IMG/VR virus record: IMGVR_UViG_3300011113_000476 | Location: 1 to 57,569 of that record | From: a virus | Lineage: Duplodnaviria > Caudoviricetes | Direction: 5' to 3' (one strand) | DNA length: 57,569 bases | Part shown: positions 34,639-55,821 of the stretch, piece after piece | How positions within the stretch are numbered: position 1 is the first letter of the stretch | How the letters are laid out: every line of letters starts with the position of its first letter | Notes under the pieces: generated by a model | Databases searched by the model: none | Told to the model about the DNA's origin: nothing | What the model saw: only the letters and a program-made list of their open reading frames with translations | Made by a program: the position numbers and the translations under genes

Positions 34639-35968
34639 AACAGACTTAGATTACAAACGCAGAGTAATCGACATTAAATCAAATTCTTTTTGCGGAGCTA
34701 AGTGGTATAATGCTACTATATGGTTGGGCAGCGGTATGACCACAAGTTGTCACCATCCGTTGCCGCACAAAGTAGAAATTGACGACGTTGAACGAAATCC
34801 CAAGGCATTGCATAATACACAAAAAAAGAAAATGGAGCGCGAACAGATGCAAAAAGGGGAGCGCCCATCTGGTTGCGAATACTGCTGGAAGATTGAGGAC
34901 ATGGGCCGAGATGCAGTCAGCGATCGTGTATACAAAACTGTAATTTACACTGATGAAGACTTGGCATATGCATATAGAACACCTGCCCGAGAAGATTTCA
35001 ATCTTAAAACTCTTGAAATTGCTTTTGACAGAACTTGTCAGTTTGCTTGTAGTTATTGTAACCCTGCTTTTAGTAGCACATGGGTCAACGATATTAAACG
35101 CAACGGACCTTATACTAATCTGGTCAGTGATGGTAGAAATCATTTTACACACACCCATGATAGTTCACAACTTTACAAATTCGGCGAAGCCAATCCATAT
35201 GTCGAAGCATTTCATAAATGGTGGGAAAGTGATCTTCATAAAACACTGGGCGAATTACGCATTACCGGTGGAGAGCCGTTAATGAGTGCAGAAACTTGGA
35301 AATTATTAGATTGGTTTAAAGCAAATAAAGGTCGTAGCAAAACTCGACTTGCCATCAATAGTAATTTAGGATATCAAGTTGATATAGATAGACTAATTGA
35401 CAGTGTGGATGGACTTGAAATAGATTTGTACACTAGCAATGAAAGCGAATATGATCAAGCAGAATATATACGCGATGGGTTGAATTACAATCTATGGTTG
35501 GAAAATGTTATAAAACTTGCAGAAAGTAAAAAGTTTTATAGACTGCATGTGATGTGTACGATCAATGCATTATGTTTAGATACATTGCCTGATTTCTTAG
35601 ATTCGATGGTTAATTTAAAAAAAGATTTTGGCCGAGACTTTCCTAATTTTACATTAAACATTTTACGTTTCCCAAGTTTTCAAAGTCCATTAATATTGCC
35701 AGACGAAATTAAAACAAAATATCGTAATCGATTAATTGATTTTATTGTCCGACACAAAGGGCATAACTATTTACATGAGCATGAAATAAATCATGTATCG
35801 CGTTTAATAGATTATTTGGATGTTGTTAAGACACCCCACAGTGATTCTTTTGAATTACCAAAATTAACAAACGATTTTAAACAATTTTACACACAATACG
35901 ATCAACGCAGAGGCAAAGATTTCTGTAAGACGTTTCCTGCACTAGCAGATTGGTACAATACATTATGA
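34619..35968 (+). CDS. Radical SAM protein with N-terminal twitch-like domain (#3)
   Basis: CQFACSYC and TGGEP motifs. N-terminal CGAKW...SCHH...CEYCW. Closest to #1. Confidence 0.9.
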   Translation: MPRINNETDLDYKRRVIDIKSNSFCGAKWYNATIWLGSGMTTSCHHPLPHKVEIDDVERNPKALHNTQKKKMEREQMQKGERPSGCEYCWKIEDMGRDAVSDRVYKTVIYTDEDLAYAYRTPAREDFNLKTLEIAFDRTCQFACSYCNPAFSSTWVNDIKRNGPYTNLVSDGRNHFTHTHDSSQLYKFGEANPYVEAFHKWWESDLHKTLGELRITGGEPLMSAETWKLLDWFKANKGRSKTRLAINSNLGYQVDIDRLIDSVDGLEIDLYTSNESEYDQAEYIRDGLNYNLWLENVIKLAESKKFYRLHVMCTINALCLDTLPDFLDSMVNLKKDFGRDFPNFTLNILRFPSFQSPLILPDEIKTKYRNRLIDFIVRHKGHNYLHEHEINHVSRLIDYLDVVKTPHSDSFELPKLTNDFKQFYTQYDQRRGKDFCKTFPALADWYNTL

Positions 35969-37302
35969 GTGAAGACAAAAAAACTGATAGATTTTATAAA
36001 CGCGGCTACGACTACAATAGTCGAAAACCACTGTTTATAGATTCAGATTCTCTCACAGAAACACAGATTAATAGACTGACAAATAGTAAGTCTTTCTGTA
36101 TGTTACCGTGGGTACATCAACATGCTTATCCAGATGGCAGAGTGTATCCTTGTTGTTTTGCAGAATACTTTCATCCCATTGGTAATCTTAAAAACAACAC
36201 TATGCGAGAAGTTTGGAATCAAGAAGGTTACAAAGAGATTCGACGGTCGATGCTTGAAGACAAACCTGTAAAACAATGTACTAAATGCTATGAACAGGAA
36301 GCCAATGGCTTTTTTAGTATGCGTTACGATGCTAATAGAAGCTACGGACATAATATTGCAGAAGTCGACAAAACTCTGCCAGACGGCACACATCCTGAAT
36401 TTAAAATTAGATATTGGGACGTTAGATTTAGCAATCTCTGCAATTTTCGTTGCAGAACTTGCGGCCCAGTTTTTAGCAGTAACTGGTATAATGATCATGT
36501 TAAATTATTCAACAGAGTGCCAGATGTAAATGGCAAAGATCTGGCCAGAATTGAATATGCTGCTGGCGACGAAGAACATATGATTCGTCAAATGGAAGAA
36601 CATATTCCTTATCTAGAACAAGTTTATTTTGCTGGTGGCGAACCTTTAATTATGAAGGAACACTACTATCTATTAGAAAAACTTATCGAAGCAGGTCGTA
36701 CTGACGTTTGTATTCAATACAATACAAATTTTAGTGAACTAGCGTTTAAAGACAAACATGTATTCGAATACTGGAAACATTTCAGAACTGTGGGAGTAGG
36801 AGCCAGTTTAGATGCCAGTGGGGCCAGAGCAGAATTAATGAGAAAAGGCACAGACTGGAAACAAACAGTTCGCAATCGTGAACGTATGTTAGAAGAGGTA
36901 CCGCATGTAGATTTTTATATTGCATCTACTATTAGTGCTATGAATGTGTTACATATTTTAGATTTTCATAAAGAATGGGTTGATATGGGATTTATTAAGC
37001 CCAAAGATTTTAATGTGAATATTTGTCAAAGTCCCGAATGGTATAGGATTGATTTATTTCCACAAGAATTTAAAGAGCGAGTTATTAAACCCGCGTATGA
37101 ACAACACATTGAATGGTTAGAACCTCGGGACTCATTGAAACGAGCAACGACTGGGTTTAAGAGTGCTATTAATTTTTTAATGGCCACCGATGGTACGCAG
37201 CATTGGAATAAATTTAGACAAGAAATCGAGTTACTAGACAATCTCAGAGGGGAGAATTTTTGGAGTACTTTCCCCGAATTAAATGAATTAAAAAATAAAT
37301 GA
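35965..37302 (+). CDS. Radical SAM protein with N-terminal twitch-like domain (#4)
   Basis: CNFRCRTC and AGGEP motifs. N-terminal CMLPW...PDGRVYPCC...IGNL...CTKC is a SPASM/twitch pattern. ATGA overlap at 35965. Confidence 0.92.
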   Translation: MSEDKKTDRFYKRGYDYNSRKPLFIDSDSLTETQINRLTNSKSFCMLPWVHQHAYPDGRVYPCCFAEYFHPIGNLKNNTMREVWNQEGYKEIRRSMLEDKPVKQCTKCYEQEANGFFSMRYDANRSYGHNIAEVDKTLPDGTHPEFKIRYWDVRFSNLCNFRCRTCGPVFSSNWYNDHVKLFNRVPDVNGKDLARIEYAAGDEEHMIRQMEEHIPYLEQVYFAGGEPLIMKEHYYLLEKLIEAGRTDVCIQYNTNFSELAFKDKHVFEYWKHFRTVGVGASLDASGARAELMRKGTDWKQTVRNRERMLEEVPHVDFYIASTISAMNVLHILDFHKEWVDMGFIKPKDFNVNICQSPEWYRIDLFPQEFKERVIKPAYEQHIEWLEPRDSLKRATTGFKSAINFLMATDGTQHWNKFRQEIELLDNLRGENFWSTFPELNELKNK

Positions 37303-38504
37303 CATTACCTAATACTATTTGTATGCTACCTTGGATTAGTATAGAGTCTAGTCCAACAGGAACTTCTAGGCCGTGTTGTTTGGCTAGAGAAGAAATTACA
37401 GGCATCGATTTGCGAATGCATACATTAGAAGATGCATATAAAAGTGACTATATGCAGAATCTACGTAGGCAATTTCGTGCAGGAGAAAAACCTGCAACCT
37501 GTAAACTGTGTTGGGATGAAGAAGCAGCAGGCCGGGACAGTAAACGTATACACAGTCAAGTTAGACTCAAAGAACTGTACCCATTGGTCGATTGGCAAAA
37601 TGATTTACCAGATCAATTATGGTTTATTGATTTAAAACTAGGTAATATTTGCAATTTGAAATGTAGAATATGCGGAAGCTGGAGTAGTAGCAAGTGGGCA
37701 GCAGAAGAATTAGATTATCTCCCACAAGGGTACGATAGAAAAAAACATATTGCATACACTTGGCTTAAGCAAGGCCGATGGCCAGAGGAAAGTCCCGATT
37801 TCTGGAAGAACTTAAAATCATTGCTGCCTAATATTAAGTATTTTGAATTTACTGGGGGTGAACCTTGGTTAATCGAAGAACATTGGGATTTACTACGATA
37901 TGCCGTGACTACAGGCGACAGCAAACACATCGATATTCATTATAATACCAATGCAACTGTGGATGGGTTAGGTATACAAAAATCAGCTTTATGGAATCAT
38001 TTTGGTCGTGTAGACATTGCATTTAGCATCGACAATGTTGGTGCAAGATTTGAATATGAACGATATGGCGCAGATTGGGACAAGGCCAACGAAATAATCG
38101 ATGGCGTTCATTTTGCACGAGCCGTCGACACACCTAATATTACTACTCAACTTTGTTTTACAATTAATATTCAAAACGTCTACTACATAGATGAACTACT
38201 AGCCTGGGCAAGTACTAAAACTTTCGACAGCATTTATTTTAATATGTTACACAGCCCTGATCATATGAGTATTCAACGATTAACTCCTACAGCCAAAGAA
38301 TTAGTTTTGAATAAACTTAAAACAACTTTTTGGAATACAAAGGAACATCACCAAGAAATTGAGAATGTAATTAAATTTATCGAAAACGGTATAGGCAGTG
38401 ACGGACAAGAATTTTTAAACAACATGAAACGGACAGATCAATATCGTAAACAAAATTTTATGGATACGCACCCAGAAATAGCCAAGGCCATGGGTTATGA
38501 TTAA
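37299..38504 (+). CDS. Radical SAM protein with N-terminal twitch-like domain (#5)
   Basis: CNLKCRIC and TGGEP motifs. N-terminal CMLPW...PCC...CKLCW. Confidence 0.92.
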   Translation: MTLPNTICMLPWISIESSPTGTSRPCCLAREEITGIDLRMHTLEDAYKSDYMQNLRRQFRAGEKPATCKLCWDEEAAGRDSKRIHSQVRLKELYPLVDWQNDLPDQLWFIDLKLGNICNLKCRICGSWSSSKWAAEELDYLPQGYDRKKHIAYTWLKQGRWPEESPDFWKNLKSLLPNIKYFEFTGGEPWLIEEHWDLLRYAVTTGDSKHIDIHYNTNATVDGLGIQKSALWNHFGRVDIAFSIDNVGARFEYERYGADWDKANEIIDGVHFARAVDTPNITTQLCFTINIQNVYYIDELLAWASTKTFDSIYFNMLHSPDHMSIQRLTPTAKELVLNKLKTTFWNTKEHHQEIENVIKFIENGIGSDGQEFLNNMKRTDQYRKQNFMDTHPEIAKAMGYD

Positions 38505-39795
38505 ACCTGATACGCTTTGTATGGCTCCGTGGACGCACACATACTTAAGTCCACAAACGGAAAGACGTATGTGCTGTGCAAGTCGAGAACCAGCACAAAA
38601 TTTTCAACAATACATAGACACAAAATCTGGTACAGGAAAATATATACCGATCACGCTGGATGATCATTGGAACGGGGAGCACATGCGGTCCGTGCGCTTA
38701 CGTATGATGCGTGGAGAAACTCTGCCAGAGTGCGAAGTATGTAATGACAAATTGCTGAACACCAGCGTTTACCGTAGTTATTTTAATCAATTATTTGGTC
38801 ATAAGTACAATGAAGCGATGGAGAAAACTCGCTATGATGGTTCAACGGATATGAAGCCTGTGAGCTGGGATTACAGATTTAGTAATCTTTGCAATTTCAA
38901 ATGTCGCATGTGCGGAGACATGTTAAGCAGTGCGTGGGAAAGTGAGCAACGACAACACAACATGATCAATTGGTCGGATTCAAAAAATAATTGGATGCGA
39001 CTCGAAGTCAAAAAACAAATTGAACAGTTTCAAGACACACAAATTGAGGCAGAGTTTAATCAAGCCGTCGAAGAGCACAGAGTTGAAGAAGTGTATTGGG
39101 TGGGCGGAGAGCCTCTCATGTATGAGCAACATTGGAGATACATGCAGAGGATAATAGAATTAGGAGACGGCCCAAATGTTTATGCTAGATATAATACAAA
39201 CTTATCAAGAATTAATTATAAAGGTATCAATCTTTATAATGATATTCTCAGCAGGCTTCGTGATTGGCAGATTTGTGCAAGTATCGACGGAACAGGCCCG
39301 ATTGGCGAATATATTAGAACAGGCCTTGACTACAATGCATGGCTTGAAAACTTCCGTCAAGGAGTTGCAATTACTAGTCACAGACGTCAAATGCGAATTG
39401 ACTTTACGCTCACTCTGCCCGGCATGTTCGAAATTATTAATATCCAGCGACTTGCAGAAGAAGAAAAAGTCGATATTCTCGCGAAAGTAATTTTTAGTTT
39501 TAGTCCAGACATAGTTATGTCACCTTTAGCACTACCTAGATTTATCTTAGATCCTTGGGTAGATGAAACAATAGGCCGTTTGCCGAGTGGTAGCAACCCG
39601 TTAAAGGATATCTTAGTCCAGCTAAAAACTAGACCCACTTTCGAAGAACAATGGCCCACCGACTATCGAGTTGGTTTGCGTAAAGGAAAAGCAAGAATCG
39701 AAAGACTTGAACAAATTCGAAATGATAGTTATACTATGAGAAATATACTGTCGGCAAAACCCAAAGTATTAGAATGGTGGGATTCAATTGAATAA
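38497..39795 (+). CDS. Radical SAM protein with N-terminal twitch-like domain (#6)
   Basis: CNFKCRMC and VGGEP motifs. N-terminal CMAPW...MCC...CEVC. Confidence 0.92.
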   Translation: MIKPDTLCMAPWTHTYLSPQTERRMCCASREPAQNFQQYIDTKSGTGKYIPITLDDHWNGEHMRSVRLRMMRGETLPECEVCNDKLLNTSVYRSYFNQLFGHKYNEAMEKTRYDGSTDMKPVSWDYRFSNLCNFKCRMCGDMLSSAWESEQRQHNMINWSDSKNNWMRLEVKKQIEQFQDTQIEAEFNQAVEEHRVEEVYWVGGEPLMYEQHWRYMQRIIELGDGPNVYARYNTNLSRINYKGINLYNDILSRLRDWQICASIDGTGPIGEYIRTGLDYNAWLENFRQGVAITSHRRQMRIDFTLTLPGMFEIINIQRLAEEEKVDILAKVIFSFSPDIVMSPLALPRFILDPWVDETIGRLPSGSNPLKDILVQLKTRPTFEEQWPTDYRVGLRKGKARIERLEQIRNDSYTMRNILSAKPKVLEWWDSIE

Positions 39796-40892: not shown

Positions 40893-40994
40893 ATGAAATG
40901 GCTTAAAAATTTATACTACAGAATTAAATTAGAAATCACTTATCGTCGCAAACTCAAAGAATTGCGAAAGCGAGATCCTTTTATCTATAAATGA
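40893..40994 (+). CDS. 33-aa basic peptide not in the ORF track
   Basis: MKWLKNLYYRIKLEITYRRKLKELRKRDPFIYK. TAAATA lies 5 nt upstream, and its stop overlaps the carbamoyltransferase start (ATGA). Confidence 0.7.
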   Translation: MKWLKNLYYRIKLEITYRRKLKELRKRDPFIYK

Positions 40995-42472
40995 ATATTC
41001 TGGGAATATCTGCAGGATTTCATGATGCTGCATTAAGTGTCATTGACTATCATGGAAATATATTATATGCGGGTCACAGTGAACGCTATAGTAAAATTAA
41101 AAATGATCCAAATTTAAGTCCTGGTATAATTAAAGAAATAGTTAATTATAGAATTGACCATGTTGCTTACTATGAACGACCATGGAATAAACAGTTAAGA
41201 CAACTATACAGCGGCCAAGGCATCGAATGGAATAAACTTACAGCTCGACAAATTCTTACCAAGCAAATAGGCAAAGAATTTTCTAAATTCCCAGGTCTAA
41301 TTTCAACGCACAACCATCATCTATGCCACGCGGCTGCAGGGTTTCAGACAAGCCCATTTGACAAAGCCACGGTGGTTGTAATCGACGCCATTGGGGAATG
41401 GGACACAATAAGTATTTGGGCAGCAGAATACGTTCAAGGAAAAGCCGTTTATAAAAGATTATGGCGCCAAAAATATCCGCATAGTATAGGATTGTTTTAC
41501 AGTGCAATGACAGAACGGGTTGGACTTAAACCCAATGAAGAAGAATATATTCTTATGGGTATGGCAGCATATGGTGCACCTGCGTTCACTGATTTATTTA
41601 AATCCAAATTTTTACACAATGAGTGGGACATTAAATTTAAAGAAAATCTTCACGCCGGCATAGAACAAACGTATTTGTCCTATGTTGGGGATATGGATAT
41701 TGCGGCCAGCGCACAAGACTTAACAGAAGAATTGGTATTAAATATAATGCGTCGCGCAAAAGATTTTAATTGGAGCAACAATTTAGTCTATATGGGCGGT
41801 GTTGCTCTTAATTGTAGTATTAATCGTAGATTAGGGGAATACTTTGAAGATATTTGGATTATGCCTAATCCTGGTGATGCTGGGTCTAGTCTTGGCGCCG
41901 CTGCACTTGCTTATCGCGACAGGATTAATTGGCGCAATGCTTATTTGGGTCACAATATCCCTGGTGCTTACCCTGTTAATGCTGCCCTGGATGCTCTTTT
42001 GCATGGTGGTATTGTTGGTGTGGCTAGTGGCCGAGCCGAGTTCGGACCGAGGGCACTAGGCAATAGAAGCTTATTAGCAGATCCCCGGGGCCCTGATATA
42101 AAGAATCGAGTAAATGAAATCAAACGTAGACAAAAATTCAGACCCTTTGCGCCAGTTATTTTGGAGGAATTGGCTGATAATTATTTCGATATCCCTCGCA
42201 ACTGGAATAACAGTAGGTATATGCAAGTCGTCGGTCAGTGCAGGAATCCTGACTTATTTCCTGCTATTGTGCATCATGACGGAACTAGTCGTATTCAGAC
42301 TGTGCCCAAGGACGGATCGGGAATCAGAGAACTCTTAGAAAAATGGTTTATTGTCACAGGCTGCCCTATGCTATTAAATACTAGTCTAAACATTCGAGGT
42401 GAGCCCATGGTCAATGACCGCAGGGACGCTGATAGATTCGAACAATTATATGGGGTAAAAGTATTGTCGTGA
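40991..42472 (+). CDS. Carbamoyltransferase, NodU/CmcH/TobZ family
   Basis: 'GISAGFHDAA', 'SERYSKIKND', 'HHLCHAA', 'MGMAAYG', 'GGVALNC', 'EFGPRALGNRSLL', 'RPFAP' and 'LLNTSLN'. Confidence 0.95.
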   Translation: MNILGISAGFHDAALSVIDYHGNILYAGHSERYSKIKNDPNLSPGIIKEIVNYRIDHVAYYERPWNKQLRQLYSGQGIEWNKLTARQILTKQIGKEFSKFPGLISTHNHHLCHAAAGFQTSPFDKATVVVIDAIGEWDTISIWAAEYVQGKAVYKRLWRQKYPHSIGLFYSAMTERVGLKPNEEEYILMGMAAYGAPAFTDLFKSKFLHNEWDIKFKENLHAGIEQTYLSYVGDMDIAASAQDLTEELVLNIMRRAKDFNWSNNLVYMGGVALNCSINRRLGEYFEDIWIMPNPGDAGSSLGAAALAYRDRINWRNAYLGHNIPGAYPVNAALDALLHGGIVGVASGRAEFGPRALGNRSLLADPRGPDIKNRVNEIKRRQKFRPFAPVILEELADNYFDIPRNWNNSRYMQVVGQCRNPDLFPAIVHHDGTSRIQTVPKDGSGIRELLEKWFIVTGCPMLLNTSLNIRGEPMVNDRRDADRFEQLYGVKVLS

Positions 42473-43089
42473 CCTTTAATGCTGAAATAGTTGTAACAAA
42501 TCCAAATTTGGGGCAGGCTTGCACTACTGCTCATTTAATTTATTTACGGAACTATCGATGTGTTTCTTCTTTATTTTATAACAATTTTATAAATGGTATG
42601 AAATGGGAGCCAATGGAATATAAAGATATAGATTGGGGAAATAAATTAATTTTTAGCCACTTAGCCGATCCGATTGAACGTAGGCATAAAGGAATTGCTC
42701 ATTGGTTGATTCGTAACAATTTACACACAGAATTCAGAGTAAATGAAGAATTCCAAGATTATATTATAAATCTTCCGTATATTGACAATCATAGCGCAAG
42801 TTATCATGAAATGTTAGGTGAAAAGATTACAAAAATTCGATGGATTATCTGTGATTATGACAATTATGATAAAACTATAGAAAACACAGACAAATTTCTT
42901 CAATCACAAAAAATACTTGGATGGACAAATTTTGATTGGCGATTTAAAAATATAGCAGGGGTTGATCAACGATCTTTAACAAGAGAAATAAAACAAAGAT
43001 TCACAGAGAATAAAAACAACACACATATCTTAGACTATTTTAGAAAAGATATAGAATTATTTGAAAACTTAAGAAAGGAAACACAATGA
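42469..43089 (+). CDS. Sulfotransferase-like protein
   Basis: Degenerate 5'-PSB 'RNYRCVSS', 3'-PB-like 'DPIERRHKG' and C-terminal 'YFRKDIELF'. GTG start. Adjacent to the APS kinase. Confidence 0.5.
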   Translation: MTFNAEIVVTNPNLGQACTTAHLIYLRNYRCVSSLFYNNFINGMKWEPMEYKDIDWGNKLIFSHLADPIERRHKGIAHWLIRNNLHTEFRVNEEFQDYIINLPYIDNHSASYHEMLGEKITKIRWIICDYDNYDKTIENTDKFLQSQKILGWTNFDWRFKNIAGVDQRSLTREIKQRFTENKNNTHILDYFRKDIELFENLRKETQ

Positions 43090-43880
43090 ACACATCAAAG
43101 ATTTTAATAATGGGCCTTCCCGGCGCAGGGAAAACTTACTTGGCAACAGAATTAAAAAAGTTGCTGGAAGCCAATGGCAAAACAGTAACATGGTTCAATG
43201 CTGACGAGATTCGAAAGAAATTTGATGACTGGGATTTCAGCGAAGCAGGGCGCATTAGACAAAGTAAACGTATGTTCGATTTGTCGATGTCATGCAACAC
43301 AGATTATGCATTGTGTGACTTTGTTGCGCCGCTAGTAGAAATGCGTAACAATTTTAAAGCAGACTGGACAGTATGGATGGACACTATACGCGAAGGTCGC
43401 TACGCTGATACTAATAAAATGTTTGTAGAACCTGATGTTTATGATTTTCGGGTCACTGAACAAAACGCTGCTAAGTGGGCAGATTTTATTGCTGAACATA
43501 TAGTCGACAATAGACGCCGTCCTGCATTTGATTGGCGTAAAGAAACTGTGCAAATGTTGGGCCGCTGGCAACCATGGCATGATGGCCACCGGGCACTGTT
43601 CGAAAGATTATTACAACGTACTGGCCAAGTTATAATTCAAGTTAGAGACGTACAGGGGTGGCAAGGATCAAATCCGTTTGAAGTAGAAAAAGTCAAATCA
43701 TTTATCCGTCGAGACTTAGATCCACTATACCAAGGACAGTACGACATACAAGTAGTTCCAAATATTGTACATATAGGATGGGGTCGTGGCGTGGGATATT
43801 CGGCAGGAGAAGAAACTTTTGACGAATCAATCACTGAAATTTCTGCAACTAAAATACGAAAAGAATTGGGACTAAAGTGA
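43086..43880 (+). CDS. Adenylylsulfate (APS) kinase-like domain fused to an HxGH nucleotidyltransferase domain
   Basis: P-loop GLPGAGKT, 'NADEIRK...DFSEAGRIRQ' and 'DFVAP'. C-terminal 'MLGRWQPWHDGH...ISATKIR'. Confidence 0.8.
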   Translation: MNTSKILIMGLPGAGKTYLATELKKLLEANGKTVTWFNADEIRKKFDDWDFSEAGRIRQSKRMFDLSMSCNTDYALCDFVAPLVEMRNNFKADWTVWMDTIREGRYADTNKMFVEPDVYDFRVTEQNAAKWADFIAEHIVDNRRRPAFDWRKETVQMLGRWQPWHDGHRALFERLLQRTGQVIIQVRDVQGWQGSNPFEVEKVKSFIRRDLDPLYQGQYDIQVVPNIVHIGWGRGVGYSAGEETFDESITEISATKIRKELGLK

Positions 43881-44092
43881 CCGACAGTGTCCAGCGAAGT
43901 TTATTTAAAACGATTAGTTGGAGATTGACTGGGAGCGGTTCTACGTTTATAATATCATATATTATTACCGGTAATTTTTCAATCGCAAGTAGTATTGCTT
44001 TTTTACAAATAACTGTGAATACCCTGTTATATTTTTTACACGAAAGAGTTTGGAACTTAATTAGATGGGGTAAACGAATATCTATAGATTAA
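43877..44092 (+). CDS. DUF2061-like small membrane protein
   Basis: 'RSLFKTISWR...LYFLHERVW...WG' pattern with a hydrophobic core. Confidence 0.8.
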   Translation: MTDSVQRSLFKTISWRLTGSGSTFIISYIITGNFSIASSIAFLQITVNTLLYFLHERVWNLIRWGKRISID

Positions 44093-44093
44093 C

Positions 44094-44789
44094 ATGGACA
44101 TAACTCCTTATATTTTAGAAGTTGAAGAATTTAATAAATTTGAAAGAAGTCCTGGAGCCACAGCAGCAGTATATACCTGCGAAGTATTAACATGCATTGC
44201 AACTTTAAAATGCGGTTCCAGTTTTTTGACTGCTACTTTTAATCAAAACTGTCGATGGAGGCAGATACCGTTTTCAGAAATTAATTGGGACAACAGTCAT
44301 GTTTTTACTTTGATGACAGATCCATTGACCAGACGGTATAAAGCAATAGCAGAATGGTTATTTCAAAAGAATCTGATAACTGAATATTATAAAAATATTG
44401 ATTTGCAAAATTTTGTTTTGAGTACTCCTATATTAGATATACACTCATATGGGTATGTTTATAACTATTACGAAAATTTCTGTGATCGGATAGATTGGAT
44501 TCCGTTAGAATCTGTAAAAAATCATGATGGGGTAAAATGGGCAATTGCAAAACTCTTAGAAAAATATAAAATTTACATATCTTATTATTGGGCAAATGAT
44601 CGAGAGTCAAATATTTCATCTAAGGTAAAAAAGAATCTTGAAGCAGATATAAAAGAAAAATTTAAGTCTTCTCCCAATGAAAAAATAATGGAATATTTAT
44701 TACCTGATATTGATTTATATAATAGAGTTTCTAATAAATTTAATCCTAATGGTGATATTTGGGATGAAATAAGTTGGTTAAGAAAATGA
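44094..44789 (+). CDS. Sulfotransferase-like protein (paralogue of 42469)
   Basis: 'TLKCGSSF' 5'-PSB-like, 'TDPLTRRYKAIAEWL' and 'YLLPDIDLY'. Confidence 0.55.
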   Translation: MDITPYILEVEEFNKFERSPGATAAVYTCEVLTCIATLKCGSSFLTATFNQNCRWRQIPFSEINWDNSHVFTLMTDPLTRRYKAIAEWLFQKNLITEYYKNIDLQNFVLSTPILDIHSYGYVYNYYENFCDRIDWIPLESVKNHDGVKWAIAKLLEKYKIYISYYWANDRESNISSKVKKNLEADIKEKFKSSPNEKIMEYLLPDIDLYNRVSNKFNPNGDIWDEISWLRK

Positions 44790-45250
44790 AGGAAAAATTA
44801 ATTCAAGCATACATGCAAACTGCAAAAATATTTGCTGAACTCAGTCATGCTCGGCGTCTGCATGTGGGTGCAATAGTGGTTAAAGATGATAGAATTATCA
44901 GTATTGGTTACAACGGCATGCCTGCTGGATGGGATAATAACTGTGAACACGAAGATATGGGATTCTCAGATGCTGTATTCGGAGAACCACAAACTGTAAT
45001 TAATAGAGGATTAAAAACACGACCTGAAGTTCTCCACGCAGAATCGAATGCCATTAGTAAACTAGCACGAAGTAGTGAAAGCGGAGACGGGGCAACGATG
45101 TTTATTACTCATGCTCCTTGTATGGAGTGTTCTAAACTGATTTATCAAAGCGGAATAAAAAAAGTTTATTTTGGGCAAGCTTATCGTGATACTTCCGGTG
45201 TTGAATTTTTAAACAAGTGTAAAATTACAGTAGAACAAATCGATGTTTGA
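44786..45250 (+). CDS. dCMP deaminase
   Basis: 'IISIGYNGMP', 'HAESNAI' and 'PCMEC' zinc motifs. ATGA overlap at 44786. Confidence 0.92.
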   Translation: MKEKLIQAYMQTAKIFAELSHARRLHVGAIVVKDDRIISIGYNGMPAGWDNNCEHEDMGFSDAVFGEPQTVINRGLKTRPEVLHAESNAISKLARSSESGDGATMFITHAPCMECSKLIYQSGIKKVYFGQAYRDTSGVEFLNKCKITVEQIDV

Positions 45251-46913: not shown

Positions 46914-47774
46914 ATGCGTATCAATGAGATATTAACTGAAAGCCTAAGTCGTATAGCGTTTCATTACACCAGTAATAAAACAGCGTTATCCATTTTAACC
47001 TCTGGAGTCTTTCAATTAAGTAGCACCTTAGGTAGTGTAGAGCAACAGTATGCCCCCAAAGGACATCCTTATTTCTTAAGTACTACTAGAACTCGCCGCG
47101 GCGGATATCATAGAATAATAGGTCAACAAGCTACACTGTTTGTATTAGACGGTAATTGGTTTAATAATCATTATATTTCTAAACCCATGGATTACTGGGA
47201 AAATAGAAATCCATCACTACCTCATCACAGAGAACATGAAGCAGAAGATCGAGTATTCAGTAAAGAACCTGCGATATCAATCGAAGGTATATCTGCTGTA
47301 CATATGTATTGCGACCCCGAAGCAGACCCAGAAGTTAAAGCATGGACTCGACAAGCTTTAATCGTTGCTAAACGTAGAAATATTCCTGCCTATTTTTACA
47401 CAGACAAAGAAGCATGGAGAAACTTTGATACTCGTAAACAAGGTGATGTTTCTGTGCTGTCGGGGCAGGAAAAAACTGGCGGGCATATAAGTCGTCACAG
47501 AGGGTTTTTGATACCTTGGATGGAATTATTGCAAGCTAACGATAAATCACAATTAAGCAAACGTGCAGATCAATTACGCTATAATTTACAATACGGATAT
47601 GATAAAGAAAATGCTGTTCAAAGTTTAAACACGGATTTAAGCAATGCTCGCAAACCTAATGCTGGTGCAGATCGTAACAATGCGATTAGAATAATTAAAT
47701 TTATGCAACAAAATAATTTACCAACTATTAAAGATTTTGTTGAAGCACTAGCAAATAAATGGAAATCTAATTAA
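46914..47774 (+). CDS. Probable head-packaged protein; possible ADP-ribosyltransferase-like fold
   Basis: N-terminal MRINEILTE leader, 'FHYT', 'LSTTR' and 'HEAEDR' motifs, with TAAATA just upstream. Confidence 0.5.
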   Translation: MRINEILTESLSRIAFHYTSNKTALSILTSGVFQLSSTLGSVEQQYAPKGHPYFLSTTRTRRGGYHRIIGQQATLFVLDGNWFNNHYISKPMDYWENRNPSLPHHREHEAEDRVFSKEPAISIEGISAVHMYCDPEADPEVKAWTRQALIVAKRRNIPAYFYTDKEAWRNFDTRKQGDVSVLSGQEKTGGHISRHRGFLIPWMELLQANDKSQLSKRADQLRYNLQYGYDKENAVQSLNTDLSNARKPNAGADRNNAIRIIKFMQQNNLPTIKDFVEALANKWKSN

Positions 47775-48876
47775 AAAATTCTTTAACTTTATCAACAATA
47801 TATTCAGCTTCTGAATCTGTTACTTCTGGATAAATTGGCAAACTTAAACATTCTTGGCAAAAAGCACTGGCTTCTCTGTATAACTCTGCTGCATAGTTAA
47901 TATAGGGATAACCCACCGGATGTTCATACAACGGGGATTCATAATGTATTTTAGTTTCTACACCGTTAATTGCTAAATGATGTTTTAATCCATTTCTGTC
48001 ATTTAGTTTTATTACATATTTGTGCCATGCGTGAACAGTGCCTTCTGTGGTCTTTGGTATGTCGACATAATTGCATAATTCTGCGTTGTAGTATTCTGCA
48101 AGTTGTCGTCGACGACTTTGCCAAGAATCAAAATATTTAAGTTTAACTAACATCTGAGCGCAATCTGCCTCGCTCATTTTACTGTTAGTACCTGGGATTT
48201 CATGCCCGCTGGTTTTACCGTTGTCGCGCAGATCTCTGAGAGAATTGGCTATTTGTAAATCATCCGTCAATACCATGCCACCAGAACCATAGTTGGGCAA
48301 ATTTTTAGTAGGATCAAAACTCAGCACACTGATATCACCTAGTGCTCCGCTGGGTATTCCTTTATAAATAGCTCCGAAACTTTGTGCAGCATCTTCGATA
48401 ATTTTTAGATTCTGATTAAAGAAATCTGTGGTCATCCTAAATCTGTCCCAGTCGACTGTGTTGCCAAACAAGTTAACATACATGATACTTTGTACTCCAG
48501 TGCCCTTGAGAGCGTAGTCTAAACTTTCTAAATTTATTAATGCTTGATCATCCGTGTCGCACAATACTGGTTCGTTGCCGTTCAGTAATACACTGTTGAT
48601 AGTAGATACAAAGCTAATAGTGGGAATGAGAATTTTCGTATTCTCTAAGAATAAAACTTGTTGAGCAAATATCAAACCTTGACTACAACTGTTGACAGCA
48701 ACAGCATATCTACGATGACATCTTTTTGCAATCTGTCTTTCAAATTCTTTAGTATAGTTTCCATCCAGCACTTGACCTGTACTGTATACCTTGTCTGTTG
48801 TGTCTAGTATTTCTTTTCGTAAATTGGCGTATTGCCGTTTTACTCCAAAAAATGGAATTATAATTTTGACTTCCAA
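47767..48876 (-). CDS. DegT/DnrJ/EryC1/StrS PLP-dependent sugar aminotransferase
   Basis: 'IIEDAAQSFGA', 'SFDPTKNL..YGSGGMV', 'GTNSKM' and 'LSLPIYP'. Confidence 0.93.
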   Translation of the reverse strand: MEVKIIIPFFGVKRQYANLRKEILDTTDKVYSTGQVLDGNYTKEFERQIAKRCHRRYAVAVNSCSQGLIFAQQVLFLENTKILIPTISFVSTINSVLLNGNEPVLCDTDDQALINLESLDYALKGTGVQSIMYVNLFGNTVDWDRFRMTTDFFNQNLKIIEDAAQSFGAIYKGIPSGALGDISVLSFDPTKNLPNYGSGGMVLTDDLQIANSLRDLRDNGKTSGHEIPGTNSKMSEADCAQMLVKLKYFDSWQSRRRQLAEYYNAELCNYVDIPKTTEGTVHAWHKYVIKLNDRNGLKHHLAINGVETKIHYESPLYEHPVGYPYINYAAELYREASAFCQECLSLPIYPEVTDSEAEYIVDKVKEFFN

Positions 48877-49826
48877 AATTTACTTTCAGAAAACCAGTCA
48901 TGATATCGTTGAAAACCTTCTTCGACATCTACTGTAGGATTAAAACCAAAGTCGCTGCGAGCTGCATCTATGTTTAATGCACCCCTTGAAGGAAAATCTG
49001 CATCTTTGTCTCTGCATTCAATTGATCCCCGGCCTGCAATTTTTACTGCTAAATTTGCAGCATCTAGTAGACTATGACTGTGGCTTTTTGTGATGTTATA
49101 CGTTTTGTTAATAGCATTATTGCTTAACGTAGCCTGAACTATGCCTCTGGCTGCATCTTCAACGTAAGTAAAATCCAATGTTTCATTGGCTCCGTTGACT
49201 TTAAGAGTTTGTCCTCGCATTGCAGATAACATAAATTTAGATATTACCCGATCTTCAACATCATATTCACCATAAACAGCACTGGGTCGAATAATAACAT
49301 GATTAAAACATTTTCTTCGCGAATAATCAGAAACTAACCATTCACCCATTAATTTCATAATACCATATTGACCTTGTGGTTTACAGATAAAATCTTCTTT
49401 TACTTGATCGGTAAAATCTCCATATACCATACTGCTGCTAATATAAACAAATTTAGGAATTCGGCTAATTTTTGTTAGTTCTAATAGATTTACTAAAGCA
49501 GTGCTCATTACTTCACTGCCCCAAATTGGATTTTGATTAACTACTTTTTGTCTAGGAAAACTTGCCAAATGAATAACAGCATCACAGGTATACCCAAAAG
49601 TTTTAAAAACTGTTTCTAACTTCGAATAATCTCTGATATCTAAATGATGAACTGTACTGCGAATTCTATTTTGTCGAGCCTTAAACAAATACGCCAGTTC
49701 ATCTTTTTGTACGAACCCATAATCAGTGACACTGTCAATCACAAAACATTCATGACCCAACTGTTCTAATTGTCTTACAACATTGTGTCCTATGAACCCT
49801 GCACCACCCGTTATTAAAAATTTCAT
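48858..49826 (-). CDS. NAD-dependent nucleotide-sugar epimerase/dehydratase (extended SDR)
   Basis: 'ITGGAGFIG', 'SSSMVYG', YxxxK 'YGIMK' and 'DFTYVED'. Confidence 0.93.
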   Translation of the reverse strand: MKFLITGGAGFIGHNVVRQLEQLGHECFVIDSVTDYGFVQKDELAYLFKARQNRIRSTVHHLDIRDYSKLETVFKTFGYTCDAVIHLASFPRQKVVNQNPIWGSEVMSTALVNLLELTKISRIPKFVYISSSMVYGDFTDQVKEDFICKPQGQYGIMKLMGEWLVSDYSRRKCFNHVIIRPSAVYGEYDVEDRVISKFMLSAMRGQTLKVNGANETLDFTYVEDAARGIVQATLSNNAINKTYNITKSHSHSLLDAANLAVKIAGRGSIECRDKDADFPSRGALNIDAARSDFGFNPTVDVEEGFQRYHDWFSESKFWKSKL

Positions 49827-50065: not shown

Positions 50066-50693
50066 TTATTGCTTTTAAAATTTTTTGAGCATAAATCTGA
50101 TGTTGCTTTGGACCTGGATGCTGTTGATCATGTCCAACATCAATAAATGAATAGTTATGAATATCATATAACATAATGGCGTAATCTAAATTAGAAACAT
50201 AGTTATAAATTTTTAAATCGTACGACGGCGTATTACAGGGCATCGCGGCCAGAATAAATTTCGACGATATTTTTTTTAAAAAATTAAAAACTTGTTCTGT
50301 GCTAGAAATAGCATCATACATTAAATGATTGCTAACTAGTATTTGTTCTTGAAAATAATTTTTTATGTTTTTTGTGGAATTAAAATTATTTGTGTTTACA
50401 TGATGTAATATGTTAGATTCATCTAAGTATGGAAACCTTGAAACTCCTGTTAGTCCCCAAACTACTATATCATCTTTTCTTATATCAGATCTTAAAATCT
50501 GATCAGCAGCCCATCGAATTGATGATCCTGGTTGTGTTAAAAACGTCACAGGCAAATTCAATTTATCACTTAGCAGTTGCCCATATCTTTCATTACTATT
50601 TACACCACTTCCGTGGCTAAAACTGCATCCCACAATCCATAATTGAGCAGAGTCGGACTTACGTGATTCAGTTAAGTATAGAAAATTATTCAT
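50046..50693 (-). CDS. SGNH/GDSL-fold protein
   Basis: 'IVGCSFSHG', 'PGSS' and 'DQQHPG'. Confidence 0.65.
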   Translation of the reverse strand: MNNFLYLTESRKSDSAQLWIVGCSFSHGSGVNSNERYGQLLSDKLNLPVTFLTQPGSSIRWAADQILRSDIRKDDIVVWGLTGVSRFPYLDESNILHHVNTNNFNSTKNIKNYFQEQILVSNHLMYDAISSTEQVFNFLKKISSKFILAAMPCNTPSYDLKIYNYVSNLDYAIMLYDIHNYSFIDVGHDQQHPGPKQHQIYAQKILKAINEDKST

Positions 50694-51595: not shown

Positions 51596-51601
51596 GCATT
51601 A

Positions 51602-51630
51602 AGTATAATTTTATTGACGAAATATGTCAA
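51602..51630 (-). promoter_or_regulatory. Sigma70 promoter TTGACA-N17-TATACT directly upstream of thyA
   Basis: -35 at 51630-51625 and -10 at 51607-51602. The thyA ATG starts 7 nt after the -10. Confidence 0.75.
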
Positions 51631-55521: not shown

Positions 55522-55821
55522 TTACAACCATTTCAACGCAAATAATGTAGCATCCCTTTTATCTTCAAAAATATAGCGACCACCAAAATTTCCAAAATGT
55601 TCGAATTCTCCCTGGCAGTGTTGATACGCCCAGTCTACAATGTCTGACGATTTATATCGACTATCAAATGGCGGAAGATCCACAATAGACCAACCGCAAT
55701 TAGACAACTGCTCTACTAGAATATCAAAGTCGATTTCTTTGTCTATATCTTCTGCTATTTTATTCATAATATCGCCTACAATATCTTTTGGAACTGTAGT
55801 AACGTTTTTATGCGTGAGCAT
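55522..55821 (-). CDS. Small hypothetical protein (F-x-LKW family)
   Basis: Likely start ATG 55821 (MLTHK...). Ends 'FEDKRDATLFALKWL'. Confidence 0.65.
   Translation of the reverse strand: MLTHKNVTTVPKDIVGDIMNKIAEDIDKEIDFDILVEQLSNCGWSIVDLPPFDSRYKSSDIVDWAYQHCQGEFEHFGNFGGRYIFEDKRDATLFALKWL

What the first reader, a model, noticed from the sequence alone, without database searches (positions are those of the whole stretch)
42469..44789. Self-contained sulfation module: APS-kinase/nucleotidyltransferase fusion between two sulfotransferase-like genes
Seen: a 264-aa protein joins a CysC-like P-loop kinase to an HxGH domain ending ISATKIR. It is followed by a DUF2061-like membrane protein and flanked by two paralogues with PAPS-binding-like motifs. 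Known: Sat-type ATP sulfurylases belong to the same HxGH nucleotidyltransferase superfamily, and PAPS synthases fuse the two activities in much larger proteins. Inference: this may be a miniature PAPS synthase feeding phage sulfotransferases. Alternatively it activates another small anion or a sugar phosphate.
Basis: partly seen in the sequence, partly recalled or inferred. Interest (0 to 1): 0.7.

Follow-up and report, generated by a model that had tools for sequence, protein, structure and literature searches.

The report
Phage sulfate-activation and sulfotransferase gene cassette
A freshwater jumbo phage carries a tightly packed set of genes that most likely makes the activated sulfate donor PAPS and uses it to sulfate an unknown target; the kinase gene is a known viral gene, but its fused second domain and its small membrane partner have not been explained before.

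Summary
The four ORFs exist as described. Contigs from runs of three other studies confirm the par1/fusion, fusion/DUF2061 and DUF2061/par2 junctions.

**The 264-aa protein.** It joins a compact APS-kinase-like P-loop domain (Pfam PF01583 above its cut-off, lid missing) to a ~110-aa HxGH nucleotidyltransferase domain.

**New evidence for a sulfate reading:**
- The downstream DUF2061 gene lies next to this fusion in 38 of 80 related viral loci.
- In bacteria, DUF2061 sits in cysH/cysD/cysN operons and is fused to true CysC or CysN.
- The two flanking paralogues are divergent Sulfotransfer_2 relatives (hhalign 95.5%, E 1.6e-8).
- Other sulfotransferase genes lie beside the fusion in three more viral loci.
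- In cultured or huge phages, sulfotransferases co-occur with APS-kinase(-like) genes.

**Weak points:**
- The HxGH domain is not a Sat-family ATP sulfurylase. Its nearest relatives are NMN adenylyltransferases.
- The sulfurylase step is therefore inferred only.
- The flanking paralogues accompany the fusion in only 2 of 80 loci, so the four-gene module is specific to this lineage.

**Verdict:** This is a new variant of a known kind (viral cysC, PAPS synthase).

The parts
42469..43089 (+). par1: divergent Sulfotransfer_2-like protein (206 aa), paralogue of par2
   Evidence: ORF. It is 29% identical to par2, E 1e-25. It is a member of the par profile (178 bits). The family profile matches true Sulfotransfer_2 by hhalign at Prob 95.5%, E 1.6e-8.
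43086..43535 (+). Fusion protein, residues 1-150: compact APS-kinase-like P-loop domain (Walker A GLPGAGKT at 43113-43136)
   Evidence: PF01583 38.2 bits against a cut-off of 21.1, covering profile positions 4-94 of 152. TIGR00455 30 bits against a cut-off of 138.7. PDB 2yvu APS kinase E 6.6e-6. The alignment with true CysC shows the kept motifs and a missing lid of about 25 aa.
43545..43880 (+). Fusion protein, residues 154-264: small HxGH nucleotidyltransferase domain (HDGH at 43578-43589, ISATKIR at 43839-43859), then the stop codon
   Evidence: CTP_transf_like E 0.016. NMNAT-type NCBIfam models E about 2e-5, far below their cut-offs. In the ESM Atlas, 28 of 30 named hits are 115-131-aa CTP_transf_like clusters. 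No PF01747 match. hhalign against Sat gives Prob 72% over 36 columns.
43877..44092 (+). DUF2061 small membrane protein (71 aa), conserved partner of the fusion
   Evidence: PF09834 76 bits. It is adjacent to the fusion in 38 of 80 viral loci. Bacterial relatives lie in cysH/cysD/cysN operons and are fused to CysC or CysN.
44094..44789 (+). par2: divergent Sulfotransfer_2-like protein (231 aa); putative 5'-phosphosulfate-binding loop LKCGSS, with Lys39 at 44208-44210
   Evidence: ORF. The family holds 23 close relatives and 404 representative clusters. hhalign to Sulfotransfer_2. Column counts. ESM Atlas lead.
40991..42472 (+). Context: NodU/NolO-type carbamoyltransferase whose stop overlaps the par1 start
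   Evidence: Carbam_trans_C E 4e-47 and Carbam_trans_N E 4.8e-41. phrog_1601 E 4.3e-92. It lies within 6 kb of the fusion in 14 of 80 viral loci.

Best explanation
This is a phage sulfation cassette.

The 264-aa protein is a miniature PAPS synthase. Its C-terminal HxGH domain adenylylates sulfate (ATP + sulfate -> APS + PPi). This step is inferred. Its N-terminal compact APS-kinase-like domain phosphorylates the 3'-OH of APS to give PAPS. This step is well supported by homology and context, but not assayed.

The translationally coupled DUF2061 protein is a small membrane partner of the sulfate-activating enzymes. It may act as an anchor at the membrane or as a route of sulfate entry. Its role is inferred from gene order and fusions.

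The two flanking paralogues are divergent Sulfotransfer_2-type enzymes. They would pass the sulfate to an unknown acceptor, most likely a sugar or glycan. The reason is that the same gene string holds a NodU-type carbamoyltransferase and, nearby, a sugar aminotransferase and an epimerase/dehydratase.

The conserved core across phages is the fusion plus DUF2061. The sulfotransferases are lineage-specific additions.
For: (1) Kinase half.
- PF01583 is above its gathering score.
- The best PDB sequence match is an APS kinase, 2yvu, E 6.6e-6.
- The alignment with true CysC keeps the P-loop, the (N/D)(A/G)D..R, F(S/T)..(G/D)R and FV(A/C)P...R motifs, and an aromatic residue where CysC has NFTGID.

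(2) DUF2061 link to the fusion.
- It is next to the fusion in 38 of 80 viral loci.
- It is present in 4 of 5 large fusion-bearing phage records.
- P0145 is this family's kinase half fused directly to DUF2061.

(3) DUF2061 link to sulfate activation in bacteria.
- In 72 bacterial loci where I could call the DUF2061 ORF (of 80 fetched), PAPS_reduct genes lie at +1/+2 in 57 and a CysN-type GTPase at +3/+4 in 59.
- DUF2061 is fused to true CysC (P0146-P0148, L155; TIGR00455 164-217 bits, cut-off 138.7).
- DUF2061 is fused to true CysN (L092; TIGR02034 553 bits). L169 has the same architecture by sequence and was not scanned.
- A preprint passage places DUF2061 in a Mesorhizobium nod locus with nodH, nodP and nodQ.

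(4) Sulfotransferases.
- The par profile against 29 true Bacteroidota Sulfotransfer_2 proteins gives hhalign Prob 95.5%, E 1.6e-8 over 171 columns.
- Controls were weak: four printed column-shuffle lines P 0.69-0.91 (five were run), reversed 0.3, unrelated family 0.21.
- The PSB-loop Lys is kept in 136 of 143 sequences.
- A bridging ORF (L084) matches both the par HMM (E 6e-11) and PF03567 (22.1 bits, cut-off 22).
- Unrelated Sulfotransfer_2 genes lie directly beside the fusion/DUF2061 pair in L010 and L013 (31-36 bits), and an ST2-like ORF in L070.

(5) Co-occurrence in the 50,697 phage records.
- Two sulfotransferase queries found 4 distinct phages.
- Three of them (DLP_6, LR756500.1, phiRSL1) also hold an APS-kinase(-like) gene.
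- Three kinase queries found such a gene in only about 16 distinct phages or records.

(6) No other sulfurylase candidate. No PAPS_reduct-family gene (PF01507: CysD, CysH) is found in the five large fusion-bearing phage records, and no PF01747 (Sat) match in the window. PF01747 was not searched in those five records.

(7) From established knowledge (recalled): Sat-type ATP sulfurylases are HxxH nucleotidyltransferases. Metazoan PAPS synthases also have the kinase at the N-terminus and the sulfurylase at the C-terminus. Fused bifunctional enzymes usually catalyse consecutive steps.
Against: Against the HxGH domain being a sulfurylase:
- It has no PF01747 match at E<=10.
- It aligns with a Sat profile over only 36 columns.
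- Its best matches are NMN adenylyltransferases: NF003786 and TIGR01527 at E about 2e-5, and PDB 2qjt and 1f9a at E about 0.05.

Against the kinase half being a standard APS kinase:
- It fails NCBIfam's CysC cut-off (30 against 138.7 bits).
- It lacks the ~25-residue lid of CysC.

Against the par proteins being standard sulfotransferases:
- They have no Pfam sulfotransferase match: 0 of 143 at E<=0.01, and 2 of 143 at E<=5, no better than noise families.
- They have no PDB sequence match.
- The canonical 3'-phosphate-binding Arg is present in only 17 of 143 sequences.
- A Lys stands where Sulfotransfer_2 has the 3'-PB Ser.

Against a conserved module:
- Sulfotransferase-type genes flank the fusion in only 5 of 80 viral loci.
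- 42 of 80 loci show no DUF2061 within 6 kb.

Other contrary contexts:
- In Sanovirus/Salvovirus phages the fusion follows a NADAR gene with no DUF2061 in the fetched loci. PF03567 found nothing in Bhz60 and only 13.6 bits in Bacata.
- Kinase-only forms exist (RsoM2USA_248, P0145), so the HxGH domain is dispensable.
- In Caulobacter and Shewanella, DUF2061 genes appear in tables of iron/Fur-related regulated genes, not sulfur-regulated ones.
- No fold could be predicted.
Confidence: 0.5

Rival explanations
1. APS kinase only. The N-terminal domain makes PAPS from APS supplied by the host's CysDN or Sat. The HxGH domain does something else, such as adenylylating NMN/NaMN or another phosphate ester, or a regulatory or nucleotide-binding role. 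It does not activate sulfate.
For: - The HxGH domain's nearest sequence relatives are NMN adenylyltransferases, and it shares their GRxQPxHxGH, NPF and ISxTxIR motifs.
- There is no Sat-family signal.
- Kinase-only relatives exist. phiRSL1 ORF238 has a C-terminal tail without an intact HxGH motif.
- Bacterial DUF2061 operons already supply CysDN.
Against: - Both domains are strictly conserved together: the HxGH and ISAT.IR columns are invariant in 39 sequences, and both motifs are kept in Sano-type proteins at 35-39% identity.
- Compared with the 167-position NMNAT model, only profile positions 4-73 match, and only about 40 residues remain for the rest. The usual NMN-binding part therefore seems to be missing.
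- An NAD enzyme fused to an APS kinase would join unrelated pathways, which is unusual for such fusions (established knowledge, recalled).
Confidence: 0.25
2. An inverted NadR-like NAD+ salvage enzyme (nicotinamide riboside kinase plus NMN adenylyltransferase). The small membrane protein would be the importer, by analogy with the phage NARP3 pair (PnuC-like transporter plus NadR-like enzyme) that counters NAD-depleting defences.
For: - NMNAT-type matches of the C-terminal domain.
- The same layout of a bifunctional kinase/adenylyltransferase next to a membrane protein as NARP3 (abstract and passages).
- A NADAR gene lies directly upstream of the fusion in Sanovirus/Salvovirus phages.
- One source names a relative 'nicotinamide riboside kinase'.
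Against: - The kinase half matches APS kinases, not the NadR kinase family: there is no AAA_28 hit at E<=0.1.
- It keeps a set of invariant Arg residues suited to an anionic substrate.
- DUF2061 is tied to cysH/cysD/cysN, CysC, CysN and nodHPQ, not to NAD genes.
- No NAD-salvage family appears among the ten top neighbour clusters scanned in the 80 viral loci.
- NADAR also sits two genes from a true CysC in LR756500.1, so NADAR does not argue against an APS kinase.
- The domain order is the reverse of NadR.
Confidence: 0.07
3. An adenylyl-X synthase coupled to a 3'-kinase, for a substrate other than sulfate. Candidates are selenate, a phosphonate, phosphopantetheine (CoA-synthase-like) or a sugar/polyol phosphate. 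The flanking enzymes would then use a product that is not PAPS.
For: - The par family lacks the canonical 3'-phosphate-binding Arg and Ser of PAPS-dependent sulfotransferases.
- The kinase lacks the CysC lid.
- The HxGH domain is of TagD/NMNAT size, and such enzymes act on phosphate esters.
- The chemistry 'adenylylate, then phosphorylate the 3'-OH' is shared by PAPS and CoA synthesis (established knowledge, recalled).
Against: - Every independent context points to sulfate: cys operons, CysC and CysN fusions, the nodHPQ locus, and true Sulfotransfer_2 neighbours.
- No CoA or sugar-kinase family matches.
Confidence: 0.1

Closest known systems
Viral 'cysC' auxiliary metabolic genes of freshwater and marine phages (Kieft et al. 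preprint 10.1101/2021.01.05.425418; Chen and Banfield, PMC10914622; passages read)
   Same: - An APS-kinase-like gene in large freshwater phage genomes.
- Relatives of the window's protein carry the source name 'adenylylsulfate kinase'.
- The papers report such genes as transcribed in lakes, under purifying selection, and in clades apart from bacterial CysC.
   Different: - In the passages I read, those papers treat the gene as a one-step assimilatory sulfate-reduction gene.
- The words 'sulfotransferase' and 'adenylyltransferase' occur 0 times in the preprint's main text.
- The fused HxGH domain, the DUF2061 partner and the sulfotransferase neighbours are not mentioned there.
- Whether their gene sets include this exact family I could not check, because supplements were closed.
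Bifunctional PAPS synthases (metazoan PAPSS1/2; Sat-APS kinase fusions such as PDB 2gks)
   Same: - Two-domain logic: sulfate adenylylation by an HxxH-type nucleotidyltransferase fused to an APS kinase.
- The kinase is N-terminal, as in metazoan PAPSS (recalled).
- PAPSS1 and 2gks kinase domains appear among the PDB matches.
   Different: - 264 aa instead of about 550-630.
- The nucleotidyltransferase domain is about 110 aa, is not a PF01747 member, and has no PUA-like domain.
- The kinase lacks the lid.
Rhizobial Nod-factor decoration genes: nodPQ (PAPS synthesis), nodH (sulfotransferase), nodU/nolO (carbamoyltransferase)
   Same: - The same combination: a PAPS-making enzyme, a sulfotransferase and a NodU-type carbamoyltransferase in one gene string.
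- A DUF2061 gene lies in such a nod locus in Mesorhizobium (passage).
   Different: - NodPQ is CysD plus CysN-CysC, not an HxGH fusion.
- I did not compare the par proteins with NodH.
- The acceptor here is unknown.
Ralstonia phage phiRSL1, ORF230-ORF238 cluster
   Same: An APS-kinase-like gene of the same compact family (ORF238, PF01583 57 bits) lies in one co-directional cluster with a true Sulfotransfer_2 gene (ORF232, 76.8 bits).
   Different: - ORF238's tail has no intact HxGH motif.
- No DUF2061 was found in the fetched locus.
- The cluster is a DNA-hypermodification locus: dUMP hydroxymethylase, HMUDK_hel, three TAGT glycosyltransferases and two nucleotidyltransferases.
- TAGT and HMUDK_hel are not found in the window or, for TAGT, in five related large phages.
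NARP3 (phage PnuC-like transporter plus NadR-like NMNAT-RNK enzyme; PMC13464706, abstract and passages)
   Same: A two-gene unit of a membrane protein plus a bifunctional P-loop kinase/HxGH adenylyltransferase.
   Different: - Reverse domain order.
- The kinase is APS-kinase-like, not RNK.
- The partner is DUF2061, not PnuC.
- The context is sulfate, not NAD.

Membership tests
APS kinase (CysC; PF01583 / TIGR00455) | Walker A P-loop and a match to the family model above the curated cut-off | tested here: inconclusive
   PF01583 scores 38.2 bits against a cut-off of 21.1, but covers only profile positions 4-94 of 152. TIGR00455 scores 30 bits against a cut-off of 138.7, and the other CysC models are also far below their cut-offs.
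APS kinase (CysC; PF01583 / TIGR00455) | Substrate-site motifs DGD..R, GFS..DR..N.RR and FISP...R (their roles are recalled, not tested) | tested here: met
   The alignment with true CysC (P0146, P0147, P0150) shows NADEIR, DWDFSEAGRIRQSKR and DFVAPLVEMR in register. They are conserved in Sano-type, DLP_6, phiRSL1 and RsoM2USA relatives and invariant in 39 close relatives.
APS kinase (CysC; PF01583 / TIGR00455) | Mobile lid segment (RD.KGLY.KAR.GE in the CysC sequences aligned) | tested here: not met
   About 25 residues present in P0146, P0147 and P0150 are absent from all members of the phage family.
APS kinase (CysC; PF01583 / TIGR00455) | APS + ATP -> PAPS + ADP activity | not testable with these tools
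   An enzyme assay or cysC complementation is needed.
Sat-type ATP sulfurylase (PF01747) | Match to the catalytic-domain model | tested here: not met
   There is no PF01747 hit at E<=0.1 on the protein and none at E<=10 in the whole window, while the control rang in 10 of 14 known genomes. hhalign against 25 Sat proteins gives Prob 72%, E 3.3e-5, over 36 columns only.
Sat-type ATP sulfurylase (PF01747) | HxxH nucleotidyltransferase motif | tested here: met
   HDGH at residues 165-168 is aligned with the Sat HRAH motif and invariant in the family.
Archaeal/NadM-type NMN adenylyltransferase (TIGR01527, NF003786) | Full-length match above the cut-off, including the NMN-binding middle part | tested here: not met
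   TIGR01527 scores 23.8 bits against a cut-off of 181.2 and covers profile positions 4-73 of 167. NF003786 scores 23.9 against 397. PDB 2qjt and 1f9a match at E about 0.05 over the first 50-57 residues.
NadR-like bifunctional enzyme (NARP3 type) | NMNAT-RNK domain order, RNK (AAA_28) kinase, PnuC partner | tested here: not met
   The order here is kinase then nucleotidyltransferase. There is no AAA_28 hit at E<=0.1. The partner is DUF2061. The NARP3 features come from passages.
Sulfotransfer_2 (PF03567), for par1 and par2 | Match to the Pfam model above the cut-off | tested here: not met
   There is no hit for par1 or par2 and none in the window at E<=10. Of 143 family members, 0 match at E<=0.01 and 2 at E<=5.
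Sulfotransfer_2 (PF03567), for par1 and par2 | Homology by profile-profile comparison | tested here: met
   hhalign gives Prob 95.5%, E 1.6e-8, over 171 columns against 29 proteins that pass PF03567. Shuffled, reversed and unrelated controls gave P 0.21-0.91. A bridging ORF, L084, also links the two.
Sulfotransfer_2 (PF03567), for par1 and par2 | 5'-phosphosulfate-binding loop with catalytic Lys (role recalled) | tested here: met
   The K-C/x-A/G-S-T/S loop aligns with the Sulfotransfer_2 'ipK.a.tS' loop. Lys is present in 136 of 143 sequences.
Sulfotransfer_2 (PF03567), for par1 and par2 | 3'-phosphate-binding Arg and Ser of the RxPxxRxxS motif (role recalled) | tested here: not met
   Arg is at the aligned position in 17 of 143 sequences. 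The Ser position holds Lys in 123 of 143. Only the P..R core is kept (P 143 of 143, R 127 of 143).
DUF2061 (PF09834) | Match above the cut-off | tested here: met
   76 bits against a cut-off of 23.1, covering the full 52-position profile.

The most novel reading that the evidence does not exclude
The ~110-aa NMNAT-like HxGH domain is a third, unrecognised kind of ATP sulfurylase. That would make this 264-aa protein the smallest known PAPS synthase. It would work at the membrane with DUF2061, which would then be a long-orphan sulfate-entry or anchoring subunit of sulfate activation in bacteria as well. Phages would use the PAPS not for cysteine synthesis but to sulfate their own products. These could be virion or cell-surface glycans here. 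In phiRSL1, where the kinase and a sulfotransferase sit among 5-hmdU and DNA-glycosyltransferase genes, the target could be sugars on hypermodified DNA.
Probability: 0.3. Interest if true: 0.85.

Novelty: new variant of a known kind. Interest (0 to 1): 0.6.

Why it matters
- **A widely counted gene may be misread.** Viral 'cysC' is counted in virome surveys as a sulfur-assimilation auxiliary gene. If it is really a complete, minimal PAPS synthase feeding phage sulfotransferases, its ecological reading changes: sulfation of phage or host surface molecules, or of DNA, rather than cysteine supply.
- **A possible new enzyme type.** A new, very small ATP sulfurylase type would be defined.
- **A testable function for DUF2061.** The DUF2061 link gives a widespread orphan membrane family a function in sulfate activation that can be tested. 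The link rests on cys operons and on CysC and CysN fusions.
- **Scale.** The fusion family is very large: 7814 relatives at E<=0.001 among the 8000 candidates scored.

Tried and rejected

**Sequence-only tests of the par family that found nothing useful.**
- Pfam, PHROGs and NCBIfam on par1 and par2.
- PDB profile searches with A1 and A2: best E 0.28 and 0.46, kinases and Cas2, which is noise.
- tblastn of par2 against phages: no match.
- Pfam over 143 members.

**Identity of the phage.** Megablast of 10 kb and tblastn of a 925-aa ORF found nothing in cultured phages. The record is a 16%-complete IMG/VR fragment.

**DNA-hypermodification reading for this window.** It was considered because of phiRSL1. 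TAGT and HMUDK_hel are not found in the window, and TAGT is not found in G001-G005. ThyA sits beside DHFR and a dCMP deaminase, as in ordinary dTMP synthesis. I therefore kept it only as part of the novel case.

**Expression.** No RNA holder was listed for the stretch. This says nothing about expression.

**Literature.**
- Searches for DUF2061.
- Searches for phage sulfotransferases with jumbo phages, adenylylsulfate kinase, PAPS synthase, APS kinase plus nucleotidyltransferase, TAGT, RSL1 or hypermodification.
- None gave a paper describing this fusion, judged by listings only.
- A paper I recalled on DNA-modification systems was not held under the two ids I tried.
- Supplements were closed. 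The gene lists of the two cysC papers, which may show whether this family was included, could not be seen.

**Sulfotransferase Pfam models on five large fusion-bearing phages.**
- PF00685: none.
- PF03567: one hit, seen as sub-threshold in the genome scan.
- PF13469: two sub-threshold hits.
- After proper ORF extraction, two of these three ORFs passed a cut-off: L084 for PF03567 and L086 for Stf0 (PF09037). L085 stayed below the cut-off.

Full report
**What is there.** The window is a 57.6-kb fragment of an uncultured virus record, estimated 16% complete, so it comes from a jumbo phage. G+C is about 36%. It has no DNA or large-protein match among cultured phages. Runs that hold half or more of the stretch's words are labelled lake-water, viral or unspecified metagenomes.

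At 42469-44789 there are four co-directional ORFs with overlapping or abutting stops and starts. They are par1 (206 aa), a 264-aa protein, a 71-aa protein and par2 (231 aa). Contigs from four other runs of three other studies lie on them with no differences. They bridge the par1/fusion, fusion/71-aa and 71-aa/par2 junctions, so the arrangement is not an assembly artefact.

**The 264-aa protein.**
- Residues 1-150 are a P-loop kinase whose best family is APS kinase. PF01583 scores 38.2 bits, above its cut-off of 21.1, but covers only the first 94 of 152 profile positions. The best solved relative by sequence is an APS kinase (2yvu, E 6.6e-6).
- NCBIfam's CysC models are far below their cut-offs.
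- An alignment with true CysC sequences found here shows why. The P-loop and the three substrate-site motifs are kept in register, but about 25 residues of the CysC lid are missing.
- Residues 154-264 are a very small HxGH nucleotidyltransferase with five conserved elements: GRWQPWHDGH, NPF, PN, GWGRGVGY and ISATKIR. All are conserved down to 35-39%-identical proteins of Sanovirus/Salvovirus phages and Stenotrophomonas phage DLP_6.
- The nearest models for this domain are NMN adenylyltransferases, but only for the first 55-70 residues.
- In the ESM Atlas, 28 of 30 named hits are stand-alone 115-131-aa 'cytidyltransferase-like' clusters.
- It is not a member of the Sat ATP-sulfurylase family.
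- The whole protein matches phrog_10255 'kinase' end to end. It has 7814 relatives at E<=0.001 among 8000 scored candidates, on contigs of up to 328 kb.

**The conserved partner is DUF2061, not the flanking paralogues.** I examined 80 viral loci with 69-94%-identical fusions.
- DUF2061 lies directly downstream in 36 loci and directly upstream in 2 (38 of 80).
- The par family is present in only 2 (L004, L005).
- The carbamoyltransferase is present in 14.
- Other neighbours vary: radical SAM, PhoH, clamp loader and GDSL-like.
- PF09834 is found in 4 of 5 large fusion-bearing phage records. In one of these (G001) it lies away from the fusion.

**What DUF2061 says.**
- A search for longer DUF2061 proteins returned 7. 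Four are DUF2061 fused to an APS kinase with the full CysC motifs (P0146-P0148, P0150). One (P0145) is this phage family's kinase half fused directly to DUF2061, without the HxGH domain.
- I fetched 80 bacterial loci, mostly Bacteroidota, and could call the DUF2061 ORF in 72.
  - PAPS_reduct genes follow at +1/+2 in 57. The one scanned is a CysH-type reductase.
  - A CysN-type GTPase follows at +3/+4 in 59.
  - An Rrf2 regulator precedes at -1 in 41.
  - Siroheme, sulfite-reductase flavoprotein, cysteine-synthase and sulfhydrylase genes lie around.
- Two alphaproteobacterial loci encode a CysN with a C-terminal DUF2061 (L092 confirmed by TIGR02034, 553 bits; L169 by sequence only). Three others encode tandem DUF2061 repeats.
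- A preprint passage reports DUF2061 inside a Mesorhizobium nod locus with nodH, nodP and nodQ.
- Against a purely sulfur role: DUF2061 genes appear in tables of iron/Fur-related regulated genes in Caulobacter and Shewanella.
- Taken together, DUF2061 is a membrane component of sulfate activation. Whether it anchors the enzymes or admits sulfate is inference.

**The flanking paralogues.**
- Single-sequence and HMM searches give nothing.
- The family is real: 404 representative clusters.
- The ESM Atlas gave a lead to viral clusters in which 20% of members carry Sulfotransfer_2.
- I then took 29 proteins that pass PF03567, from 36 positive genomes among 401 Bacteroidota, and compared profiles. 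hhalign gave Prob 95.5%, E 1.6e-8, over 171 columns. Column-shuffled, reversed and unrelated controls gave P 0.21-0.91.
- The alignment puts the family's K-C-A-S-T loop on the sulfotransferase phosphosulfate-binding loop, and its xxPxxRxxKG on the RxPxxRxxS motif.
- The Lys of the loop is kept (136 of 143). The canonical Arg is mostly lost (17 of 143), and a Lys replaces the Ser.
- One phage ORF (L084) matches both the par HMM (E 6e-11) and PF03567 (22.1 bits).
- So par1 and par2 are divergent Sulfotransfer_2-like proteins. Whether the donor is PAPS is not shown.

**Independent links between this kinase and sulfotransferases.**
- True Sulfotransfer_2 genes unrelated to par lie right beside the fusion/DUF2061 pair in L010 and L013 (31-36 bits). 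An ST2-like ORF lies directly upstream of the fusion in L070.
- G001 encodes a Stf0-type sulfotransferase. G003 encodes a sub-threshold Sulfotransfer_3-like ORF about 2.3 kb from the fusion.
- Among 50,697 phage records, two sulfotransferase queries found four phages. Three of them also carry an APS-kinase(-like) gene:
  - DLP_6 carries the full fusion.
  - phiRSL1 carries the compact kinase, ORF238.
  - LR756500.1 carries a true CysC.
- The three kinase queries together found only about 16 distinct phages or records.
- The five large fusion-bearing phages have no PAPS_reduct-family gene, so neither CysH nor CysD.

**Mechanism.**
- Shown by homology and context: an APS-kinase-like enzyme coupled to DUF2061 and recurrently to sulfotransferases.
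- Inferred: the HxGH domain makes APS from ATP and sulfate. Three arguments support this. It is the only reaction that precedes APS kinase. It is the chemistry of HxxH nucleotidyltransferases. No CysD (PF01507) gene is found in the five large fusion-bearing phage records, and no Sat (PF01747) match in the window.
- The counter-arguments are its NMNAT-like sequence, the lack of any Sat signal beyond the motif, and kinase-only relatives. I put the full 'mini PAPS synthase feeding sulfotransferases' reading at 0.5 and 'APS kinase with an unrelated HxGH domain' at 0.25.
- The NAD-salvage rival has the published NARP3 pair as a model. It is weakened because NADAR, its main contextual support, also sits beside a true CysC.
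- The acceptor is unknown. The gene string also holds a NodU-type carbamoyltransferase. Nearby there is a PseC/DegT-type aminotransferase and an epimerase/dehydratase on the other strand, and six radical SAM paralogues and a 4673-aa ORF upstream. I therefore favour a glycan.

**Comparison and novelty.**
- The kinase is the viral 'cysC' of the virome literature. The pairing of an APS kinase and a sulfotransferase is already annotated in phiRSL1.
- As far as my searches of the held library show (listings only), three things are new: the fused HxGH domain as a candidate sulfurylase, the DUF2061 link to sulfate activation, and the par family as a sulfotransferase branch.
- I rate it a new variant of a known kind, with interest 0.6.

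Noticed in passing
window 9827-23848 (+): A single 4673-aa ORF lies upstream of the modification genes. It was not analysed. It may be a giant structural or fibre protein, and a possible target of the neighbouring modifying enzymes.
   Followed up: no
window 31097-39795 (+): Six consecutive radical SAM paralogues, three of them with a SPASM-like Cys-rich match at the N-terminus (35950-37302, 37299-38504, 38497-39795). They sit directly upstream of orf366 and the carbamoyltransferase. Similar radical SAM genes recur near the fusion in other viral loci.
   Followed up: partly
L232 (phiRSL1 record 160000-172500): phiRSL1 ORF230-ORF238 reads as a DNA-hypermodification cluster. It holds dUMP hydroxymethylase, a 5-hmdU DNA kinase domain, three TAGT DNA glycosyltransferases and two nucleotidyltransferases. 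It also contains a true Sulfotransfer_2 and the compact APS-kinase-like gene. This raises the possibility of sulfated sugars on phage DNA.
   Followed up: partly
L001 5556-5999, L089 3556-3999, L233 1580-2056: A NADAR-domain gene lies directly upstream of the fusion in Sanovirus/Salvovirus phages, and two genes upstream of a true CysC in the 462-kb phage LR756500.1. Bhz60 and LR756500.1 were confirmed by Pfam; Bacata carries a COG3236 annotation. This is an unexplained recurrent NADAR-APS kinase neighbourhood.
   Followed up: partly
L092 4612-6198, L169 4615-6201, L115, L132, P0144: Two alphaproteobacterial ORFs encode a CysN-type protein with a C-terminal DUF2061 (L092 confirmed by NCBIfam, L169 by sequence). 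Several proteins hold two DUF2061 repeats in tandem, a pattern known from small dual-topology membrane transporters.
   Followed up: partly
L004 6786-7007, L005 6768-7007, L069 6855-7079: In the window's closest relatives (93-94% identical fusions), DUF2061 is replaced by an unrelated 74-aa soluble ORF. This ORF also follows the fusion in about 10 of 80 loci. It has no Pfam match.
   Followed up: partly
window 44774-45250 (+), 50690-52117 (-), 47767-49826 (-): A dCMP deaminase overlaps the end of par2. Thymidylate synthase and DHFR lie on the opposite strand, together with a PseC/DegT-type sugar aminotransferase and an NAD-dependent epimerase/dehydratase.
   Followed up: no
window 55808-57100 (-): A DUF2201 putative metallopeptidase with a VWA-like domain. 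Not examined further.
   Followed up: no
L109 6158-6925: The CysH next to a flavobacterial DUF2061 passes both the PAPS-reductase model (NF002537) and the thioredoxin-dependent APS-reductase model (TIGR02055). If such hosts reduce APS directly and make no PAPS, a phage that needs PAPS would have to bring its own APS kinase.
   Followed up: no
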